Sequence record: KY608965.1
Length of the DNA stretch: 64,000 bases
Strand: one strand, 5' to 3'
Source of the DNA: Escherichia phage phiEC1
In this document: positions 3,806 to 63,720 of the stretch, one piece after another
Position numbering within the stretch: position 1 is the first letter of the stretch
How the letters are laid out: each line of letters begins with the position of its first letter
The notes under the pieces: model-generated
Told to the model about the DNA's origin: nothing
The model's input: the letters and a program-made list of their open reading frames with translations, nothing else
Database searches by the model: none
Position numbers and translations under genes: made by a program

Positions 3806-5610
3806 TGAAACAAAATATTAAAATTGGTAACGTCGTTGATGACGGACAAGGCGATTACCTTCGTCGAGGTGGTGAAAAGATAAATGAGAACTTTGACGAA
3901 ATCTATTATGAATTAGGTGATGGTGAAGTTCCTTATGCCGCTGGTGCATGGAAGACTTATGATGCGGCTGATGGTCTTAATCTTAAGGCTGCTTGGGGTA
4001 AATCTTATGCAATTAATACTACTTCTGGGCGAGTTTCGGTAAATCTTCCTAAAGGGACAATTGCAGACTATAATAAAGTTATTCGTGCTCGTGACGTATT
4101 TGCAACTTGGAACATTAACCCTGTTACTTTAATTCCGGCAAACGGAGACACGATTAAAGGTTCTTCATCTCCAGTAGAAATTAACGTTCAGTTCTCTGAT
4201 TTAGAATTAGTTTATTGTGCTCCTGGACGTTGGGAATACATCAAGAACAAACAAATTGATAAAATAGTTAGCTCTGACATTAGTAACGTTGCTCGTAGAG
4301 AATATCTGGTTGAAACCCAAGGTCAGACCGATTTCATGGATGTTTTTAACGGGACCTCTTATAACGTTAACAACATTCGCGTAAAACATCGTGGCAACGA
4401 ATTGTATTATGGTGATGTATTCAGTGATAATAGTGATTTTGGTTCCCCAGGCGCTAATCCTGGTGAACTGGTTGCACTTGATGGATTTAATATTAGATTA
4501 CGCCAACCATGTAATGTTGGGGACACTGTACAAATTGAGACATTCCTAGATGGTGTTTCTCAGTGGCGTAGTTCATATACTCGTCGCCAAGTTCGCATTT
4601 TAGATAGTAAATTGACTGCTAAAAAGTCTATTGATGGAAGTATTTACGTCACTGATTTGAGTACGTTCCGATCTATTCCATTTACAGCATTTGGTATTAA
4701 TCCTACAGAACCACCTAACCCGAATTCGTTAGAAGTTCGCTTCAATGGTATTCTCCAAGAATTAGCTGGTACTGTTGGAACTCCTATTTTCCGTTGTGAA
4801 GGTGTGGATGCTGATTCTGAAGAGTCATGCGCTAATCTCGGTGGGACATGGACTCAATCATATACAGATTATGCGATTGAATATACTGATAATATCCCTA
4901 GCGCAATTCTGTTTGACCGTCAATTTGAAGACCAGGACATTATTACCATCACATGGTTTAATAACGATTTAGGAACTCTTCTTGAAATGGAAGAAATCCT
5001 TGATGTCGCTGATGAGAAATATGTTTCTCAAGGGTCTAACATTGAAATTACCGGTGACGTTGCATTAACCGATTTCGATAAAATTGGATGGCCTAATGTA
5101 GAACCTGTTCCTAAGTACGAACGTGAATTCTCGACTATCTCAGCAATATTTGATACAATTTATCCTGTCGGGACTATTTACGAAAATGCGGTTAACCCTA
5201 ATAATCCGGCCACTTATTTAGGTTTTGGTTCGTGGAAAATTTGGGGACAAGGCAAAGTATTAGCAGGTTGGAATGATGACGCGTCGGATCCTAATTTTGC
5301 ATTAAATAATAATGACCTTGACATCAACGGTAACCCTACTCATACCGCAGGTGGTACTGTTGGTGTAACAACTATCACATTAGAAAATGCCGATTTACCA
5401 GCTACACAAACAGATGAAAAGGTTCTTATTTCTGATGATAATGGTACGGTAATTATAGGCGGTTGCCAATATGACCCAGATGCAGAAGGTCCTATTTACA
5501 CTAAATATCGTGAAGACCATGCAAAGACTAACGGATCTCATGTTCCAGCGCGTTCTATAACTAATATTCAGCCATCTATAACTGTATACCGTTGGGTAAG
5601 GATTGCATAA
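3805..5610 (+). CDS. 10: Baseplate wedge protein gp10
   Basis: 601 aa (T4 gp10 is 602 aa); TAATG overlap with gp9 stop; synteny. Confidence 0.9.
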
Positions 5611-6269
5611 TGACTGTACTTAATACAAAGGCGGGAGTTATTTCCCGTCATGCTGATTTTTTGAATTACAGAAAAAATCCAGCTCAAATTGATGTTTTAA
5701 ACAACCAAGCTGTAGGTTCCGTGACTATTTCTCAGTTAGCTCGTGGTTTTTATGATGCTAACGTAGAATCTGCAATAAATGATGTCCATAATATGGCACG
5801 AGCTGATATTGGTACTGTTGTAACAAACACTTCAGGCATATCGCCTGAAGGTACAGCACAAGTTGATTATTGGACTTTTTCTGGTGATGTTCTCGACGAT
5901 ACTTTGGCCCCTGGAACGCCGGTCGTTATTAACGTATTTGGACTTGCTGTTAAAGCAACAATTGGTATGACTGATAACGAATTAACTGCACAAGTTCGTA
6001 TAGCTTTACAAGAAGCCATTGCTAATCAAATCGCTATTTCTTCTTATAAAGACCATCCATCCGAAGGTAATAAACTTCAGGTGACATATTTAGATAACCA
6101 ACGTCATGTGTTGCCAACATATGCTTCGTTTGGTGTAACAATTTCGCAAGAAATTTTGTCTGAAGCAAAATCCGGATACGGAACATGGAATTTATTGGGT
6201 GCCCAAACGGTTACTCTTGATAACCATGATACTCCTACCGTTTTCTACCACTTTGTGAGAGCCTCATGA
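5610..6269 (+). CDS. 11: Baseplate wedge protein gp11 (short-tail-fibre attachment)
   Basis: ATG at 5610 overlaps gp10 stop (TAATG); 219 aa as in T4 gp11; track ORF from 5592 starts at a non-ATG codon. Confidence 0.88.
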
Positions 6270-9297: not shown

Positions 9298-9303
9298 TGA
9301 AAA

Positions 9304-9317
9304 GGGCCTTCGGGCCC
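9304..9317. other. Intercistronic GC hairpin with UUCG tetraloop (wac/13)
   Basis: GGGCC-TTCG-GGCCC; no U-tract on + strand, TTTTCA on - strand. Confidence 0.6.
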
Positions 9318-9329
9318 TAAAGGATTTAT

Positions 9330-10256
9330 ATGTCAGGTTATAATGCACAAAACCCTAAAGAATTAAAGGACGTAATATTACGTCGTTTAGGCGCTCCTAT
9401 TGTAAATGTTGAATTAACTACAGACCAAATTTATGATTGTATTTCACGAGCGTTAGAACTTTATGGCGAATACCATTTTGACGGGTTGAATAAAGGTTTC
9501 CATGTATTTTTTGTTGATGACGAAGAAAAATACCGTCACGGCGTATTTGATATGCGTGGTTCTAACGTATTTGCTGTAACAAGAATTATAAGAACAAATG
9601 TTGGCTCTATTACTTCAATGGATGGTAATGCAACTTATCCATGGTTCACTGATTTCCTTTTAGGAATGGCAGGTGTTTCAGGTGGTATGGGTAGTAATTG
9701 TGGTAAATTCTACGGCCCTAACGCTTTTGGCGCTGATCTCGGGTATTATTCTCAATTAGTATCTTATATGGGTATGCTTCAAGATATGATTGCTCCTCTT
9801 CCAGATTTTTGGTTTAACTCTGCAAACGAGCAATTAAAAGTAATGGGTAACTTTAGACAAAAAGACGTCATTATCGTTGAATCGTATGTTCGCTCTTATA
9901 TCGAGACCCATAAGATGGTAGGAAATACAGTAGGGTATGGTCAGGTCGGTCCTCGTGATTCATGGTCTATTTCTGAACGTTATGACAACCCAGACCATAA
10001 TTTGGTCGGACGACGAGTCGGTGAAGATCCTGCAACCAAACAAGGCGCATATAACAACCGTTGGGTTAAAGATTATGCGACTGCATTAGCTAAAGAGCTT
10101 AATGGACAAATTCTTGCTAAACATCAAGGTATGATGTTACCTGGTGGTGTCACTGTTGACGGTGTTCGATTAATTGAAGAGGCTCGTTTAGAAAAAGAAG
10201 CTTTACGAGAAGAGTTATATTTACTGGACCCTCCTGCAGGTATTTTGGTAGGTTAA
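9330..10256 (+). CDS. 13: Neck protein gp13
   Basis: 308 aa (T4 gp13 is 309 aa); synteny between wac and 14. Confidence 0.9.
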
Positions 10257-10257
10257 T

Positions 10258-10893
10258 ATGGCGACATACTACAGATTGTATATTACAACATTTGAAACAT
10301 CCACTGGTATAAAGATTTATGGTGGTAAACACAAATCAGTTTACGAAGACCCTTCAAAAGACCCTTATACTGGGTCTGGTACCTTTATACGAAGGGCCAA
10401 AAGAAAATACGGTCCGTCTTGTATAAAAGAAATTATATGGTCTAAGCCATTTGAATCTAAAGCTCTAATGGATGAAGCTGAAGAGTTACTGGTAGATGAA
10501 TTATCCATTTTAGAAAATTGCGCAAATCTTGTTAAAGGTGGTGCAGGCGGAAGGTCGTATATTAACCCAGAAGATAATCCATCTATAGGACAAAAACGTT
10601 CAGCCCAATCTAAAAAGAAAATGTCTGACGCCGCAAAATCAAGAAAATGGACTGAAGAAGGGTTAAGAAAACGTAAAGAATCTACAGCAAGAATGTGGAA
10701 AGATTTCAAACATAGACATCCTGATTTTTCTGGTTCAAAAAATCCAGCAGCTCGAAAAGTTAGTGTAAATGGTAAAATATTTAACACCTGCAAAGAATGT
10801 GGTGAAGAATTTAATATCACATCAAGCGCGGTTATAGGCCGATGCAAAAACAACAAACCTAAATGGGCAGGATGGAATTATGTCGACGTATAA
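10258..10893 (+). CDS. GIY-YIG homing endonuclease (seg-like), inserted between genes 13 and 14
   Basis: N-terminal GIY-YIG-type motifs (YYRLYITT…[10 protein letters not shown]…YTGSG), NLVKGGAGG motif, Lys/Arg-rich C-terminal DNA-binding tail ending …[21 protein letters not shown]…WAGWNY, paralogous to the ORF at 62702..63385. Confidence 0.8.
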
Positions 10894-11644
10894 TTCAAAT
10901 TTATTTGCAAAGTTAGAAACCCGAGAAGGCTATTCTAAAACTAATGAAACCGAGATTTTAAACAAATACGTGAACTTCAACAAATACGAAAATAGTCAAA
11001 CCCTAGCTGATGTGTTAGTAGCAGAAAGCATACAGATGCGCGGTATTGAGTGTTTTTATGTTCCACGTGAATATGTTGCCGTGGACCTTATCTTTGGTGA
11101 GGACCTTAAAAATAAATTTACTAAAGCATGGAAATTTGCTGCATATCTGAACTCTTTTGAAGGTTATGAAGGAGCGAAATCGTTCTTCAGCAACTTCGGA
11201 ATGCAAGTTCAAGACGAAGTTACATTATCTATTAACCCAGGTCTTTTCAAACACCAGGTCAACAATCAGGAGCCCAAGGAAGGTGATTTAATATACTTCC
11301 CAATGGACAACAGTTTGTTTGAGATTAACTGGGTTGAACCATATGACCCATTCTATCAAGTAGGTAAAAATGCGATTCGTAAAATTACTGCAGGCAAGTT
11401 TATTTACTCTGGCGAAGAAATCAATCCGGTGCTTCAGAAAAACGAAGGTATCAATATACCTGAATTTAGTGACTTGGAACTTAACCCTGTTAGAAATCTT
11501 GACGGTATCCATGACATTAATATCGATGAATATTCTGAAGTTGAGCAAATCAATTCAGAGGCAAGTGAATACGTTGAGCCGTATGTAGTAGTTAACAACC
11601 GTGGTAGACAAAATTCACCATTTGACGATGGGTTTATGAATTAA
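10880..11644 (+). CDS. 14: Neck protein gp14
   Basis: 254 aa (T4 gp14 is 256 aa); sequence matches recalled T4 gp14 (…NLFAKLE…NFNKYENSQ…). Confidence 0.9.
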
Positions 11645-14871: not shown

Positions 14872-16854
14872 ATGTCACTTCTCTCTCCGGGCGTTGAGCT
14901 CAAAGAAACTACCGTACAGAGTACTGTAGTTAATAACTCCACTGGTACTGCTGCCTTGGCTGGAAAATTCCAATGGGGACCTGCATTCCAGATTAAACAA
15001 ATCACTGATGAAGTTGCATTGGTTGATATGTTTGGTACTCCTAATACGGATACAGCAGATTATTTCATGTCTGCTATGAACTTCCTTCAATATGGTAATG
15101 ACCTTCGTGTTGTACGCGCAGTTGACCGTGATACTGCTAAGAACTCATCTCCTGTAGCAGGCAATATTGAATTCACAATCTCTGCTGCTGGTAGTAACTA
15201 TGCAGTTGGTGATAAAATTATCGTTAAGTATTTGACCGAAACTGTTGAAGCAGATGGTTATGTCACTTCAGTTGATGTCGATGGTAAAATTCTTAACATT
15301 TATATCCCAACCGGTAAAATTATTGCTCGTGCAAAAGAAATTAATGAATATCCGGCATTGGGTTCTAACTGGACCGCCGAAGTTGCCAGTTCTTCTTCTG
15401 GACTCTCTGGCGTTATTACAATTGGTTCTATCGTAACCGATTCGGGTATTCTGTTAACTGAAGTTGAAACTTCTGAAGAAGCTATTACTTCTCTAACTTT
15501 CCAAGAATCTATTAAAAAATATGGTGTCCCAGGCGTAGTTGCTCTTTATCCTGGTGAACTTGGCGACCAGCTCGAAATTGAAATCGTATCTAAAGCAGAC
15601 TACGACAAAGGTGCTTCAGCCCAGTTAAAAATTTATCCTGATGGTGGTACTCGCGCATCTACTGCTAAAGCAATCTTTGGGTATGGCCCACAAACTGATG
15701 ACCAATATGCAATTATCGTTCGTCGTAACGATGCTGTAGTCCAGAGTGTAGTTCTTTCTACTAAACGCGGTGAACGCGATATTTATGGTAGTAATATCTT
15801 TATTGATGATTTCTTTGCTAAAGGCGCAAGCAATTATATTTTCGCTACAGCACAAGGTTGGCCAAAAGGTTTCTCTGGCGTAATCAAACTTGGCGGTGGC
15901 TTATCATCTAATGAAACGGTTGACGCTGGCGATTTAATGGAAGCTTGGGATTTGTTTGCTGACCGCGAATCTGTTAATGCGCAGTTGTTTATTGCAGGTT
16001 CTTGTGCAGGTGAATCTTTAGAAGTTGCTTCTACAGTTCAGAAACATGTTGTAGCAATTGGTGATTCTCGCCAAGATTGCTTGGTTCTTTGCTCACCGCC
16101 ACGTGCAACTATAGTCGGTATTCCTGTTAATCGTGCAGTTGATAATCTGGTTGATTGGCGTACTGCGTCAGGAACTTACACTGATAATAACTTTAATGTA
16201 AGTTCTACTTATGCCGCTATTGACGGTAACTATAAATATCAATATGATAAATATAATGATGTGAATCGTTGGGTTCCATTAGCTGCTGATATTGCTGGTC
16301 TTTGTGCTCGCACAGACAATATTTCTCAGCCTTGGATGTCTCCTGCCGGTTATAACCGTGGACAAATTCTTAACGTTATTAAGCTTGCGATTGAAACTCG
16401 CCAAGCACAACGTGATCGTTTGTATCAGGAAGCTATTAACCCTGTTACTGGTACCGGTGGTGATGGGTATGTTCTGTACGGTGATAAAACTGCCACTTCC
16501 GTTCCTTCACCATTTGACCGTATTAACGTTCGTCGTTTGTTCAATATGGTTAAAACGAACATTGGTTCAGCATCTAAATATCGCCTGTTTGAATTGAACA
16601 ACGCATTTACCCGTTCTTCTTTCCGTACAGAGACTTCTCAATATCTACAGGGTATTAAAGCTCTCGGTGGTGTATATAACTTTAAAGTTGTTTGTGATAC
16701 TACCAATAATACCCCAGCAGTTATCGACCGTAATGAATTTGTAGCTACTTTCTACTTACAACCTGCCCGCTCGATAAATTATATTACGTTGAACTTTGTA
16801 GCAACAGCAACTGGTGCCGATTTCGACGAACTGATTGGTGCTGTAGGTGGTTAA
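14872..16854 (+). CDS. 18: Tail sheath protein gp18
   Basis: 660 aa (T4 gp18 is 659 aa); late promoter TATAAATA overlapping the gp17 stop. Confidence 0.95.
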   Translation: MSLLSPGVELKETTVQSTVVNNSTGTAALAGKFQWGPAFQIKQITDEVALVDMFGTPNTDTADYFMSAMNFLQYGNDLRVVRAVDRDTAKNSSPVAGNIEFTISAAGSNYAVGDKIIVKYLTETVEADGYVTSVDVDGKILNIYIPTGKIIARAKEINEYPALGSNWTAEVASSSSGLSGVITIGSIVTDSGILLTEVETSEEAITSLTFQESIKKYGVPGVVALYPGELGDQLEIEIVSKADYDKGASAQLKIYPDGGTRASTAKAIFGYGPQTDDQYAIIVRRNDAVVQSVVLSTKRGERDIYGSNIFIDDFFAKGASNYIFATAQGWPKGFSGVIKLGGGLSSNETVDAGDLMEAWDLFADRESVNAQLFIAGSCAGESLEVASTVQKHVVAIGDSRQDCLVLCSPPRATIVGIPVNRAVDNLVDWRTASGTYTDNNFNVSSTYAAIDGNYKYQYDKYNDVNRWVPLAADIAGLCARTDNISQPWMSPAGYNRGQILNVIKLAIETRQAQRDRLYQEAINPVTGTGGDGYVLYGDKTATSVPSPFDRINVRRLFNMVKTNIGSASKYRLFELNNAFTRSSFRTETSQYLQGIKALGGVYNFKVVCDTTNNTPAVIDRNEFVATFYLQPARSINYITLNFVATATGADFDELIGAVGG

Positions 16855-22906: not shown

Positions 22907-23176
22907 TTATTTCTGTGCAATTTCGATGTAAGTTTTCAAAATATTTTGCCAATTAGGCATACCTTCTTGGACATATGCCGGAGAACCGTCTTTGTTTTTG
23001 AATGATGCAAGTTTATCAGTGGCCCAATAACCTTTAGCTCGAGCTTCAGAATCAACTTTCATCCATACTTTGTTGAAGGCATTACCATTAACTTTTGCAC
23101 CATATTTTTCTACTAACTTAACTGCTTCAGCTTCCAGAACTTTTAAAGTATCTCGTAAGAAACGTGCTTTAGTCAT
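22907..23176 (-). CDS. Hypothetical early protein (orphan) encoded antisense within the capsid gene block
   Basis: 89-aa ORF with ATG, GAGGAG Shine-Dalgarno and its own early-type promoter (GTTTAC-N18-TACTAT) at 23207..23236. Confidence 0.6.
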   Translation of the reverse strand: MTKARFLRDTLKVLEAEAVKLVEKYGAKVNGNAFNKVWMKVDSEARAKGYWATDKLASFKNKDGSPAYVQEGMPNWQNILKTYIEIAQK

Positions 23177-62055: not shown

Positions 62056-62709
62056 TTAATACTTACATGATTTGATTGTTTCTATGAACAATTTCTTAGC
62101 AGCATTTCCATCGATTTGAAGTATTTTTCGATATGCCTTTAATTTGGTAGAATAATTTTGCCAGACTAAATTGTCAGTAAGTTCGTCATGCTTATCTATA
62201 ATATTCAAGAATGAATCCAACAACAAGAAGGTTTCAAATGAAATTATATTGCTTTGTAGCAATTTGAATATGTAGCTCGACTGAACGTTGTTATTATAAT
62301 CAAATATCTCTTGAAGCGCACTAACTTCAACTTTCTTACTGAAATAGTAGATGTTACGTACGTCTTCGGCAAATGTCTCTTTAGCTTGTTTGAGACGTCC
62401 AATATATTCCCTATAGAAAACTAATGCATCAGCGTCTGATATCTCACCAATCCATGCGTCTTGGTTAGCAACTAAGTTGCTTATGAATATCAAGGTGAGT
62501 TCCTTCAATTTATATTTCTCTGCTAGTTTTTCAAAGAAATATTTATCTCGGCGTTTTTGATACGCATTATCCGAAACACGCATGCACCAGTTATATTTGA
62601 TTACGTCATACCGACCACCAAAATGGTTTTTGCACATCAAGTATAGTTTATATACCGATTTTCCATTAATATAACGTTCTCCATCAGGAGGCATGCGTAT
62701 TTTAATCAT
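62056..62709 (-). CDS. 59: Helicase loader gp59
   Basis: 217 aa as in T4 gp59; matches recalled T4 sequence (…YKLYLM…YDVIKYNWCMRVSD…). Confidence 0.95.
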   Translation of the reverse strand: MIKIRMPPDGERYINGKSVYKLYLMCKNHFGGRYDVIKYNWCMRVSDNAYQKRRDKYFFEKLAEKYKLKELTLIFISNLVANQDAWIGEISDADALVFYREYIGRLKQAKETFAEDVRNIYYFSKKVEVSALQEIFDYNNNVQSSYIFKLLQSNIISFETFLLLDSFLNIIDKHDELTDNLVWQNYSTKLKAYRKILQIDGNAAKKLFIETIKSCKY

Positions 62710-63385
62710 ATTTCCATCCGGACCATTTTGAAGATTTAAGTCTATATGTAACTAAAGACGCAGAAATATTAAAAACATTTGAAACTTCTTTACACGAGGC
62801 GTATTTTATACCATCAATAATTATAGGTTTTTGTTTTTTAATAGTTCTTTCTTTAGAATGCGACTTTGAATTTGCTATTCTAAGAGCTTCTTTGGTTGAA
62901 TCAGGCATCGGCTTATTCGTTTTTCGCCCTTTTCGGACTTTACTCAAGGCCAATTTGTGAGCTTCAGATAGTTTCTTACCCTTATTAGGTGACGGTATTT
63001 TTCTTTCTAGTCTTGTTTTAGATACTTTAGCCTTAGTCTCTTCAGATCTAGGTTTACCTAATTTAGAAAGTGAAATAGACCTTTTAGCTTCATCACTTTG
63101 TTTTTTACCAGGACCACCTTTACCACCGGGAACTAAGTTATAAGTATCATCTCGCAAAACAAAATCTTCGTTAACCAATTCTGCTTCTTTTTTATAGGCG
63201 TCCTTGTCATTATCATATTCATAAAGAATTTCGGTATAAAAATTTTTTAGTCCATATTTAGCTTTGGCCGCTAATATAGCGCGGCCTGATCCAATATACC
63301 AATCTTTCTCTTTATGTTTTTTGTGTACGCCTATATAAATTTTACCATTTATTTTATTGGTAGTTTTATACACAACGTATTTCAT
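62702..63385 (-). CDS. GIY-YIG homing endonuclease (seg-like), inserted between genes 33 and 59
   Basis: N-terminal GIY-YIG motifs (YVVYKTTNKINGKIYIGVHKK…WYIGSG), NLVPGGKGGPG, Lys-rich C-terminal DNA-binding tail …SCKEVSNVFNISASLVTYRLK…WSGWKY. Confidence 0.85.
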   Translation of the reverse strand: MKYVVYKTTNKINGKIYIGVHKKHKEKDWYIGSGRAILAAKAKYGLKNFYTEILYEYDNDKDAYKKEAELVNEDFVLRDDTYNLVPGGKGGPGKKQSDEAKRSISLSKLGKPRSEETKAKVSKTRLERKIPSPNKGKKLSEAHKLALSKVRKGRKTNKPMPDSTKEALRIANSKSHSKERTIKKQKPIIIDGIKYASCKEVSNVFNISASLVTYRLKSSKWSGWKYD

Positions 63386-63720
63386 AATAAGAAATCTAAC
63401 GTATTAGTTTTTTCACCACGAGCAACTGATGGGCGAAGCATGTTTTCGTCAATTGCTTCGCTTGTAATTTTTTCAACAATTCCTGTAGGAATAAATTTAG
63501 CAAATTGTGTTTCTGGAATAGAATTTTCTTCTAAGAAAGCAGTTGTTGCTTCTAAATAAGACATACCAAATTGTTCAACCATAGATTCGATAATGAATCC
63601 GTTTTCTTGACGGTCAAGCAATTTAGCGATATCATCTTTATCGTGTTTTACTGCTAATTCTTGTTCAGATAAACCGGCCTCATCAACCGGTTTAATATCA
63701 CTTAGTGAAAACTGTGTCAT
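63382..63720 (-). CDS. 33: Late-transcription accessory protein gp33
   Basis: 112 aa as in T4 gp33; matches recalled sequence (MTQFSL…DKDDIAKLLDRQENGFIIE…). Confidence 0.93.
   Translation of the reverse strand: MTQFSLSDIKPVDEAGLSEQELAVKHDKDDIAKLLDRQENGFIIESMVEQFGMSYLEATTAFLEENSIPETQFAKFIPTGIVEKITSEAIDENMLRPSVARGEKTNTLDFLL

What the first reader, a model, noticed from the sequence alone, without database searches (positions are those of the whole stretch)
10258..10893. GIY-YIG homing endonuclease wedged between neck genes 13 and 14
A 211-aa seg-like GIY-YIG ORF starts 2 nt after the gene 13 stop, and its last 14 nt overlap the gene 14 start. I recall no ORF at this junction in T4. It has no promoter of its own, so it would be expressed from late structural transcripts, unusual timing for a homing endonuclease. 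The T4 segD and segE positions (23/24 and inh/uvsW) are empty here.
Basis: partly seen in the sequence, partly recalled or inferred. Interest (0 to 1): 0.5.

Follow-up and report, generated by a model that had tools for sequence, protein, structure and literature searches.

The report
Homing endonuclease gene between neck genes
A selfish mobile gene for a DNA-cutting enzyme (a Seg-type GIY-YIG homing endonuclease) sits exactly between the two neck genes of this RB69-like phage; it is real and looks functional, but it is an ordinary kind of element for T4-like phages and is already annotated in public genomes.

Summary
The ORF is real: 10258-10893 (+), 211 aa, one base after the gene 13 stop, with its last 14 nt overlapping the gene 14 start. 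It is a free-standing Seg-like GIY-YIG homing endonuclease gene.

- **Distribution:** Only 12 of about 200 matching phage records carry it. The others, and T4, lack exactly 622 bp.
- **Signs of recent spread:** Carriers share a recoded first 51 nt of gene 14. The insert is much less polymorphic than the adjacent gene 13.
- **Wider family:** Diverged orthologues (53-64% identity) sit at the same junction in at least seven other T4-like lineages. Unrelated Seg genes also occupy the junction in Krischvirus.
- **Translation signals:** The element uses gene 14's old ribosome site and start codon. It carries gene 14's replacement ones inside its own 3' end.

Verdict: new member of a known kind, low to moderate interest.

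The parts
9330..10256 (+). Gene 13 (neck protein / head-tail adaptor). Its 3' end is the left flank of the insertion and is unchanged relative to endonuclease-less relatives.
   Evidence: 85% identity to T4 gp13; PHROG 211. No SNP specific to carriers occurs in gene 13.
10247..10260 (+). Translation initiation region now used by the endonuclease: GGTAGG, then the TAA of gene 13, one T, then ATG. In endonuclease-less phages the same bases start gene 14.
   Evidence: The 60 nt before the ATG are the same in the window and in endonuclease-less F27, BEU50 and a20 (SHSML-52-1, Shf125875 and CAU_ECP01 differ by one base), and the last 19 nt are also identical in T4. Coordinates read.
10258..10893 (+). 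Free-standing Seg-like GIY-YIG homing endonuclease gene, 211 aa.
10258..10269 (+). First four codons (MATY, ATGGCGACATAC). They resemble the first four codons of gene 14 in endonuclease-less phages (ATGGCAACTTAT) and form an imperfect 12-nt direct repeat with 10880-10891 (9/12).
   Evidence: The other carriers have A at position 6, giving 10/12 to the endonuclease-less gene 14. Relative P0007 begins with ATGGCTACTTAT, identical to the T4 gene 14 start.
10258..10551 (+). GIY-YIG catalytic domain (about aa 1-98), with Y8, Y21, E75 and N90.
10552..10731 (+). Linker with a NUMOD3-type motif and two helices (about aa 99-158).
   Evidence: Pfam NUMOD3 at 105-123, E 0.006, below the curated cut-off. 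Helices 116-127 and 133-149. TIGR01453 group I intron endonuclease over 95-208, E 3.8e-6, below cut-off.
10732..10881 (+). C-terminal helix-turn-helix DNA-binding domain of the I-TevI type (about aa 159-208).
10869..10882 (+). New translation initiation region of gene 14, lying inside the endonuclease coding sequence: AGGA, 7 nt, ATG. It is embedded in the codons for the conserved W-x-W-N-Y end of the DNA-binding domain.
   Evidence: The same arrangement occurs in MX01, SP18, G5211, phT4A, Kiwi and Logan contigs L024-L026.
10880..10930 (+). Recoded 5' tract of gene 14 that travels with the insert ([17 protein letters not shown] instead of MATYDKNLFAKLENRGG). It is the likely co-converted or cleavage-resistant copy of the target region.
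   Evidence: All six carriers compared share it. It is about 29% diverged from the endonuclease-less alleles. From 10931 onward the carriers return to the local haplotypes.
10880..11644 (+). Gene 14 (neck protein / head closure), the right flank.
   Evidence: Pfam T4_neck-protein E 1e-127; 87% identity to T4 gp14.

Best explanation
The ORF is a free-standing, Seg-type GIY-YIG homing endonuclease gene inserted as a 622-bp cassette at the gene 13/gene 14 junction of a Mosigvirus (RB69-like) phage.

**Shown**
- The protein has an N-terminal GIY-YIG nuclease domain, a NUMOD3-type linker and a C-terminal I-TevI-type helix-turn-helix domain.
- The gene is present in a small minority of very close relatives and absent, precisely, from the rest.
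- The insert is much less polymorphic than the adjoining gene 13.
- It always comes with a recoded first 51 nt of gene 14.
- It starts at the ribosome-binding site and start codon that gene 14 uses in endonuclease-less phages.
- Its own 3' end supplies a new ribosome-binding site and start codon for gene 14.

**Inferred**
- It is transcribed as part of the long late unit (genes 9 to 17) and translated by coupling to gene 13.
- In a cell co-infected with an endonuclease-less relative, the enzyme binds through its C-terminal domain and cuts that genome at or near the 13/14 junction. The most likely target is the conserved TAATATGGCnACTTATGA... start of gene 14.
- Recombinational repair then copies the cassette and the adjacent start of gene 14 from the carrier genome.
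- Carrier genomes escape cutting because the insertion splits the site and the downstream half is recoded.
- Because gene 14's start signals lie inside the element, imprecise deletion would damage an essential neck gene. This favours retention.
For: **Identity**
- PHROG 314 homing endonuclease at E 2.6e-37.
- T4 SegC at 33% identity over residues 4-197; T4 SegD at 32%.
- Of 109 relatives, 55 hit Pfam SegE_GIY-YIG and 33 hit GIY-YIG.
- hhalign of the family profile against I-TevI gives probability 96.6%, E 5e-10, across both domains. Y8, Y21, E75 and N90 align with I-TevI Y6, Y17, E75 and N90. The I-TevI sequence was verified against 1MK0/1LN0.
- AlphaFold2 mean pLDDT is 92.5.

**Insertion**
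- 12 of 205 matching records carry it. The others span 1779 instead of 2401 bases.
- Endonuclease-less Mosigviruses and T4 have TAA-T-ATG joining genes 13 and 14.

**Mobility**
- The carrier-specific recoded tract runs 10880-10930, with no carrier-specific SNP in gene 13.
- Among six carriers there are 10 segregating sites in 622 nt of the insert, against 50 in 927 nt of gene 13 and 23 in its last 300 nt. Fisher p = 1.3e-4.
- In gene 13, carriers are as far from each other as from non-carriers.
- 8 of the 10 insert polymorphisms are synonymous.

**Generality**
- Orthologues lie between 13 and 14 in MX01, SP18, G5211, phT4A, Kiwi and Logan contigs L024-L027.
- In each genus they are sporadic: 3 of 64 records in Krischvirus and 9 of 36 in Gaprivervirus.
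- The start of gene 14 is also recoded in carriers of Krischvirus and Gaprivervirus.
- Endonuclease and flank histories disagree. For phT4A versus Kiwi, gp13 and gp14 are 99% identical but the endonuclease only 73.5%. For MX01 versus SP18 the figures are 88% and 58%.

**Expression**
- Consensus late promoters occur only at 2893 and 14837, matching T4's layout around genes 9 and 18.
- Promoter-less seg and mob genes and late translation of T4 endonucleases are documented in PMC2988022.
Against: - No enzymology exists. Cleavage, the cut site and preferential inheritance are inferred only.
- Pfam GIY-YIG models do not hit this protein directly. T4 SegC itself hits them only marginally.
- No residue aligns with the catalytic Arg27 of I-TevI. 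That segment is deleted in this family and also in T4 SegB, SegC and SegD, so the equivalent basic residue is unidentified.
- MX01 keeps the CTTTTCGCCAAACTAGAAAAT stretch seen in endonuclease-less Mosigviruses. The recoded LFAKLE codons are therefore not a universal requirement for immunity, and the true target may be only the junction itself.
- Gene 15 is also poorly polymorphic (1.2%). Low diversity alone is therefore not proof of recent spread.
- Between genera the endonuclease is about as diverged as gp13 and gp14, which also fits long vertical association.
- Late expression is deduced from consensus scans, not from transcript data.
Confidence: 0.82

Rival explanations
1. The ORF is a decaying or inactive relic of a homing endonuclease gene. 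It no longer cuts DNA and persists only because removing it would disturb gene 14 expression.
For: No direct Pfam GIY-YIG hit. No residue aligns with I-TevI Arg27. The motifs are non-canonical: RLY for GIY, IYGG for YIG, and C-A-N for Y-N. Position 25 is His where 10 of the 11 closest orthologues have Arg. Gene 14's start signals lie inside the ORF, which would preserve even a dead gene.
Against: The ORF is full length in all 12 records at 99-100% amino-acid identity, and in every diverged lineage examined. All residues invariant across 109 relatives are present: Y21, G23, Y37, G39, S40, G41, N90, G95, plus near-invariant D35, K50, G52, E75 and G94. The wider family consensus is G-K-H, which the window protein matches. 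The missing Arg27 segment is shared with the experimentally active T4 SegB and SegC (activity per PMC2988022 Table 1). 8 of 10 polymorphisms are synonymous. The low diversity of the insert against diverse flanks argues for recent spread.
Confidence: 0.1
2. The gene is an ancient, vertically inherited resident of the 13-14 interval of T4-like phages that has been lost repeatedly. Its patchy distribution reflects deletions rather than gains by homing.
For: Orthologues sit at exactly the same junction in at least eight lineages. Their divergence between genera (53-64%) is similar to that of gp13 and gp14 (50-76%).
Against: Within Mosigvirus the insert is 3-5 times less polymorphic than the adjoining gene 13, and carriers are not a clade there. 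Carriers hold a 51-nt gene 14 tract about 29% diverged from the local allele, which points to import from a foreign donor. Endonuclease and flank identities disagree in closely related pairs (phT4A/Kiwi, MX01/SP18). Clean loss would have to regenerate TAA-T-ATGGCAACTTAT precisely in about 190 records.
Confidence: 0.12
3. The nuclease has been co-opted mainly as a weapon or regulator. Either it excludes competing phages by cutting their neck-gene region without necessarily copying itself, or it acts like I-TevI as a DNA-binding repressor that tunes gene 14 or late-operon expression.
For: T4 homing endonucleases take part in the partial exclusion of T2 (PMC2993671). I-TevI doubles as an autorepressor (PMC2988022). 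The ORF sits between two translationally linked structural genes.
Against: Exclusion and homing come from the same cutting activity and are not alternatives. No operator-like repeat of the junction sequence was found, beyond the retained left half of the junction at the ORF's own start. No regulatory RNA structure is evident, since the folds are no more stable than shuffled controls. Nothing in the data requires a function beyond homing.
Confidence: 0.08

Closest known systems
T4 SegC (free-standing GIY-YIG homing endonuclease between genes 5.1 and 5.3)
   Same: It is the best T4 match: 33% identity over residues 4-197. It has the same three-part architecture and the same Seg motifs (D-x-Y-x-G-S-G, K-Y-G, A-E, N-x-x-x-G-G). 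It is also promoter-less, overlaps its neighbours and is embedded in a late structural gene cluster.
   Different: The site is different (5.1/5.3 versus 13/14), so the target is presumably different. Identity is only 33%, so this is not an orthologue. The 'segC' label on the SP18 and Phi1 genes is nominal. The window protein has a two-residue insertion between the first two strands, YGG instead of Y-V-G, and C-A-N instead of Y-N.
I-TevI (T4 td intron endonuclease; PDB 1LN0/1MK0 catalytic domain, 1I3J/1T2T DNA-binding domain)
   Same: The fold of both domains and the order of domains match. The catalytic Tyr, Tyr, Glu and Asn align. It is expressed late in infection.
   Different: I-TevI is intron-encoded, has its own late promoter and an RNA hairpin control. 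It has a zinc finger in the linker and the helix carrying Arg27 and His31. None of these is present here.
Orthologous, uncharacterised 13/14-junction endonuclease genes in other T4-like genera (MX01 ORF161, SP18 'segC' gp176, VR26, G5211_00151, phT4A, Klebsiella Kiwi_ER50 CDS0211)
   Same: They share the junction, the orientation and the overlap of the 3' end with the gene 14 start. The proteins are 53-64% identical, with 56 invariant residues among 12 sequences.
   Different: The host-phage genera differ, as do the 5' junctions: some have their own short spacer and start at M-F-Y-R-L-Y, while the window, SP18 and P0007 types begin with gene 14-like MATY or MTTY codons.
Phi1 'segC' (phi1p149.1) and the KFS-EC 271-aa Seg-like gene, both at the Krischvirus 13/14 junction
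   Same: Both are free-standing Seg-like GIY-YIG genes between genes 13 and 14. The Phi1 gene is mentioned as a Phi1-specific gene in PMC2839356.
   Different: They are only about 29-31% identical to the window family, so they are separate Seg lineages. Phi1's copy brings its own sigma-70-like promoter and hairpin upstream. The KFS-EC copy is inserted upstream of the RB49-type hairpin and leaves the gene 14 start unrecoded.
T4 SegG, SegA, SegE and Aeh1 MobE (host gene expression signals embedded in, or coupled to, the endonuclease gene)
   Same: The logic of integration is the same: signals needed by the downstream essential gene lie within the mobile gene, which favours its retention (PMC2988022). 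Here these are gene 14's ribosome-binding site and start codon.
   Different: In T4 the embedded signals are promoters. Here they are translational signals, and the endonuclease additionally takes over the displaced gene's original start site.

Membership tests
GIY-YIG nuclease superfamily | Three-stranded antiparallel sheet flanked by helices (the GIY-YIG fold) | tested here: met
GIY-YIG nuclease superfamily | The two motif tyrosines ('GIY' and 'YIG') | tested here: met
   Y8 (in R-L-Y) aligns with I-TevI Y6, and Y21 (in I-Y-G-G) aligns with Y17. Y21 and G23 are invariant in 109 relatives. The motif letters themselves are non-canonical.
GIY-YIG nuclease superfamily | Catalytic arginine on the first helix (I-TevI R27) | tested here: inconclusive
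   The I-TevI segment carrying R27 falls in a gap in both the hhalign and MAFFT alignments. The same holds for T4 SegB, SegC and SegD.
GIY-YIG nuclease superfamily | Metal-binding glutamate (I-TevI E75) and the structural or catalytic asparagine (N90) | tested here: met
   E75 aligns with E75 and N90 with N90. N90 is invariant and E75 is at least 90% conserved in 109 relatives.
GIY-YIG nuclease superfamily | Curated sequence-model membership (Pfam PF01541 or PF19835 above the gathering score) | tested here: not met
   Neither model hits this protein at E<=1. However, 55 and 33 of 109 relatives hit PF19835 and PF01541 respectively. T4 SegC itself reaches only 26.4 and 18.8 bits. The models are weak for this clade, so this is not a functional test.
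Seg-type free-standing homing endonucleases of T4-like phages (SegA-G) | Seg-specific N-terminal motifs (D-x-Y-x-G-S-G, K-Y-G, A-E, N-x-x-x-G-G) and a C-terminal NUMOD3 linker plus I-TevI-type helix-turn-helix | tested here: met
Seg-type free-standing homing endonucleases of T4-like phages (SegA-G) | Free-standing between genes, not inside an intron or intein | tested here: met
   It lies between the gene 13 stop and the gene 14 start. Both flanking genes are intact and collinear with the endonuclease-less alleles.
Seg-type free-standing homing endonucleases of T4-like phages (SegA-G) | Sporadic presence among close relatives, with a precise empty site in the others | tested here: met
   12 of 205 matching records carry it, with a 622-bp difference. 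The empty-site sequence is TAA-T-ATG. The same sporadic pattern holds in Krischvirus and Gaprivervirus.
Seg-type free-standing homing endonucleases of T4-like phages (SegA-G) | Site-specific double-strand cleavage of the endonuclease-less allele, and preferential inheritance with co-conversion of flanking markers in mixed infection | not testable with these tools
   Only indirect signs are available: a carrier-specific recoded 51-nt gene 14 tract, reduced divergence among carriers in the rest of gene 14 (1.23% versus 2.54% between carriers and non-carriers), and low polymorphism of the insert.
Orthologue of T4 segC (as annotated for the SP18 and Phi1 genes) | Same genomic site (5.1/5.3) and close sequence relationship to T4 SegC | tested here: not met
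   The site is 13/14, not 5.1/5.3. Identity to T4 SegC is 33%, and SegD scores similarly at 32%.

The most novel reading that the evidence does not exclude
The gene belongs to a site-faithful endonuclease lineage that has tracked, and repeatedly re-invaded, the gene 13/gene 14 junction across many genera of T4-like phages. These include Mosigvirus, Dhakavirus, Gaprivervirus, Krischvirus, Slopekvirus, Klebsiella phages and two unnamed lineages. It does so by taking over gene 14's start site and carrying a replacement inside its own coding sequence. Together with two unrelated Seg lineages at the same junction in Krischvirus, this would make the neck-gene junction a natural hot spot. It would also give comparative evidence that free-standing endonuclease genes cross genus boundaries, which the 2010 T4 genome review said lacked convincing evidence (PMC2993671).
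Probability: 0.4. Interest if true: 0.45.

Novelty: new member of a known kind. Interest (0 to 1): 0.28.

Why it matters
It adds an uncharacterised site, the 13/14 neck-gene junction, to the catalogue of homing endonuclease targets in T4-like phages.

The carrier and non-carrier genomes are about 98% identical and infect laboratory E. coli, so the system is easy to test. The putative target is conserved from T4 to RB69-like phages, and the cassette's boundaries are defined to the base.

The way it is integrated is a compact example of how a selfish gene minimises harm and resists deletion. It reuses the displaced gene's ribosome site and start codon, and it encodes the replacement within its own last codons.

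For phage therapy genomics it explains a recurrent indel and a local burst of substitutions at the start of gene 14. It also flags annotation errors, such as the SP18 gene 14 start and the 'segC' and 'intron endonuclease' labels.

It does not reveal a new mechanism.

Tried and rejected
- **Direct Pfam and NCBIfam scans** gave only sub-threshold C-terminal hits. Single-sequence and 12-sequence profile searches of PDB sequences found only the DNA-binding domain.
- **A translational-control hairpin.** I looked for an RNA hairpin that hides the ribosome site, as in I-TevI, segB and mobE. Folds of the two start regions and of the endonuclease-less junction are no more stable than shuffled sequence (z +0.7 to +1.5), so the idea was dropped.
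- **Promoter searches.** I searched for late (TATAAATA, 0-1 mismatch), sigma-70-like and MotA-box promoters near the ORF. None was convincing. The one-mismatch site at 10308 lies inside the ORF, and the MotA-like hit at 9773 has the wrong spacing.
- **Base composition** does not mark the insert as foreign: GC 36.5% against 37.9% for the window.
- **A scan of IMG/VR** with the family alignment returned only three loci.
- **Literature searches** found no paper describing a 13/14-junction endonuclease beyond a one-line mention of phi1 segC.
- **An Acinetobacter hit** next to a 'head closure protein' turned out to lie at a different site, gene 4/gene 2.
- **The antisense 163-aa ORF** was rejected as a shadow ORF because it has no family match.

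Full report
**Observation**

The ORF exists as described. It runs 10258-10893 on the + strand, encodes 211 aa and starts with ATG. Gene 13 (9330-10256) ends with TAA at 10254-10256. One T follows, then the ORF's ATG. Gene 14 starts at 10880, so the ORF's last 14 nt overlap it.

The neighbours are the neck genes. They are 85% and 87% identical to T4 gp13 and gp14, and gp14 matches Pfam T4_neck-protein at E 1e-127. T4 has nothing at this junction: gene 13 ends at 94521 and gene 14 starts at 94523.

**What the protein is**

Direct domain scans are weak. Pfam gives only sub-threshold I-TevI_DNA-bd (159-204) and NUMOD3 (105-123) hits, with no GIY-YIG hit. PHROG 314 'homing endonuclease' matches at E 2.6e-37.

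tblastn finds T4 SegC at 33% identity over residues 4-197, and T4 SegD at 32%. An exhaustive HMMER search finds 1657 relatives. Of 109 of them, 55 match Pfam SegE_GIY-YIG and 33 match GIY-YIG.

A profile of these 109 aligns with full-length I-TevI at 96.6% probability, E 5e-10. I verified my I-TevI sequence against PDB 1MK0/1LN0.

In that alignment, and in a MAFFT alignment with T4 SegB, SegC and SegD, Y8, Y21, E75 and N90 correspond to I-TevI Y6, Y17, E75 and N90. I-TevI R27 has no partner, because the helix carrying it is absent from this family. It is equally absent from T4 SegB, SegC and SegD. SegB and SegC are listed as active enzymes in PMC2988022.

All residues invariant in the wider family are present.

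**It is an insertion, and a sporadic one**

A 2.4-kb query across 13-ORF-14 matches 205 phage records. Twelve of them (11 phages, since F2 is listed twice) contain the ORF at 98-99% DNA identity. The others align in two pieces that span 1779 instead of 2401 bases, so they lack 622 bp.

The window is thus a Mosigvirus-type (RB69-like) phage genome. The best match, F2, is 98.9% identical. Endonuclease-less Mosigviruses have TAA-T-ATG joining genes 13 and 14, exactly as in T4.

**Anatomy of the junctions**

In endonuclease-less phages gene 14 begins ATGGCAACTTATGATAAAAATCTTTTCGCC (MATYDKNLFA). In the window the same upstream bases (GGTAGGTTAAT) are followed by ATGGCGACATACTACAGATTG (MATYYRLY), which is the endonuclease.

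The element therefore uses gene 14's original Shine-Dalgarno sequence and start codon, and apparently its first three or four codons. Relatives lacking this extension start at M-F-Y-R-L-Y. One relative, P0007, begins with ATGGCTACTTAT, identical to the gene 14 start of T4.

At the other end, gene 14 restarts at ATGTCGACGTAT, inside the endonuclease's final codons (W-N-Y-V-D-V-stop). An AGGA lies 7 nt upstream, within the codons for the conserved end of the DNA-binding domain.

The same overlap is seen in MX01, G5211, phT4A, Kiwi, three Logan contigs and SP18. In SP18 the database start of gene 14 is placed too far downstream.

**Signs of mobility**

An alignment of six carriers and six non-carriers shows no carrier-specific difference in gene 13. 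By contrast, every carrier shares a diverged tract covering the first 51 nt of gene 14 (10880-10930). It is about 29% different from the non-carrier alleles and changes the protein from MATYDKNLFAKLENRGG to [17 protein letters not shown]. From 10931 onward the carriers rejoin the local haplotypes.

Among the six carriers the insert has 10 segregating sites in 622 nt, 8 of them synonymous. Gene 13 has 50 in 927 nt, and 23 in its last 300 nt (Fisher p = 1.3e-4).

In gene 13, carriers are as distant from each other (1.8-2.6%) as from non-carriers. One carrier, SQ17, has the highly diverged wac/gene 12 haplotype of the non-carriers Shf125875 and CAU_ECP01. This fits a young element spreading into older, diverse backgrounds with a short co-converted tract on the gene 14 side.

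There is a caveat. Gene 15 is also poorly polymorphic (1.2%), so diversity alone is not proof.

**The wider family**

Proteins 53-64% identical occupy the same junction in:
- Dhakavirus MX01
- Gaprivervirus SP18, VR26 and RZ
- Krischvirus G5211, G37-3 and Brandy
- Slopekvirus phT4A
- Klebsiella phages such as Kiwi_ER50
- three uncultured lineages

These are shown. In each genus only a minority of genomes carry it: 3 of 64 Krischvirus records and 9 of 36 Gaprivervirus records.

Compared with non-carriers of the same genus (RB49, VR20), carriers again have a recoded start of gene 14, and in these genera also a changed end of gene 13.

Endonuclease and flank histories disagree:
- phT4A and Kiwi have 99% identical gp13 and gp14 but 73.5% identical endonucleases.
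- MX01 and SP18 have 88% identical gp13 but 58% identical endonucleases.

Krischvirus holds two further, unrelated Seg genes at this junction. Phi1 'segC' is about 30% identical and has its own promoter-like sequence and hairpin. A 271-aa gene in KFS-EC is inserted just upstream of the RB49-type hairpin. The junction is a recurrent landing site.

**Expression**

Exact late-promoter consensus sites on the + strand flank the region only at 2893 and 14837. T4 has the equivalent pair, before gene 9 and before gene 18. No sigma-70-like or MotA-type promoter is convincing near the ORF, and no stable RNA structure masks either start site.

The ORF is therefore most likely transcribed within the long late unit and translated by coupling to gene 13. 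This is an inference.

It is not unusual. [quoted passage not shown] T4 segC also lies among late baseplate genes.

**Likely mechanism**

Shown: the domain architecture, the precise cassette, its sporadic distribution, the linked recoded gene 14 tract and the takeover of translation signals.

Inferred:
- The enzyme cuts endonuclease-less genomes at or near the conserved junction (TAATATGGCnACTTATGA...).
- Repair copies the cassette.
- Carriers are immune because the site is split and its downstream half recoded.
- The embedded gene 14 start signals disfavour deletion.

The exact target is uncertain. MX01 retains part of the non-carrier-like LFAKLE coding stretch, so the critical bases are probably those immediately around the gene 14 start.

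**Known or new**

Identical or near-identical copies are already annotated in GenBank as 'homing endonuclease', 'GIY-YIG endonuclease', 'putative endonuclease' or, wrongly, 'intron-associated endonuclease'. The SP18 and Phi1 genes are labelled segC.

I found no paper that analyses this junction. The only mention is that segC is a Phi1-specific gene (PMC2839356; other searches).

It is a new, uncharacterised member of a well-known kind. The comparative pattern across genera bears on the 2010 statement that there was no convincing evidence for movement of such elements across genera (PMC2993671). However, the similar divergence of endonuclease and flanks between genera leaves ancient co-divergence open.

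- The inh/uvsW gap is 50 nt and empty.
- The 23/24 gap has no seg gene but contains an 89-aa ORF of PHROG 6003 on the minus strand.
- The window holds a second Seg-like gene at 62702-63385 (-), between genes 59 and 33.

Noticed in passing
window 62702-63385 (-): A second Seg-like GIY-YIG homing endonuclease gene (227 aa). It lies between gene 59 (helicase loader, 62056-62709) and gene 33 (63382-63720) and overlaps both. It is 37.5% identical to T4 SegD, matches PHROG 314 at E 1.9e-55 and Pfam I-TevI_DNA-bd at E 1e-11. This is not the T4 segG site (32/59).
   Followed up: partly
window 22907-23176 (-): An 89-aa ORF of unknown function (PHROG 6003, E 2e-45) sits in the 420-nt gap between genes 23 and 24, on the opposite strand. 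It occupies the place where T4 has segD, so that position is seg-less but not empty.
   Followed up: partly
window 9303-9318 (wac/gene 13 intergenic); T4 locus L003 about 15565-15580: A G+C-rich hairpin with a UUCG loop (AGGGCCTTCGGGCCCT) lies between wac and gene 13. T4 has a hairpin at the same place with a different stem and a GCAA loop (GGGGCCGCAAGGCCCC). It is not followed by a T run, so it looks more like an RNA-stabilising or processing element than a terminator.
   Followed up: no
L005 (Shigella phage SP18) 2129-2917: Gene 14 of SP18 is annotated as starting at 2231 (MHHENT...). The full-length reading frame starts at 2129 (MRNSYDASLFARLEDG...) and overlaps the endonuclease's end as in all other carriers. 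This is probably a mis-annotated start.
   Followed up: yes
L006, L008, L021, L023 (Krischvirus G5211, Phi1, RB49, KFS-EC), 13/14 junction: Three unrelated Seg-like genes occupy the same junction within one genus, each with a different pattern of flank changes. G5211 changes the end of gene 13 and the start of gene 14. Phi1 recodes almost every codon at the start of gene 14 synonymously and brings a TTGACT...TATGAT promoter-like site plus a hairpin. KFS-EC changes only the end of gene 13 and keeps the RB49-type hairpin and gene 14 start.
   Followed up: partly
L001 (Escherichia phage F2, MN864145 / NC_054913): F2 is filed by NCBI under Tequatrovirus ('Tequatrovirus efftwo'). Yet this region is 98.9% identical to the window and to phages filed under Mosigvirus, while T4 gp13 and gp14 are only 85-87% identical. 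The genus assignment looks inconsistent.
   Followed up: no
L011 (phage NicPhage) 4898-5846: Gene 15 is annotated as two overlapping CDS (4898-5560 and 5547-5846) instead of one. This suggests a frameshift or a sequencing error in that record.
   Followed up: no
protein P0001: A protein 100% identical to the window's endonuclease is deposited as a hypothetical protein of Shigella flexneri (ABH225_001158) on a 90-kb contig. That is presumably phage DNA within a bacterial assembly, and it may be the source of this window.
   Followed up: no
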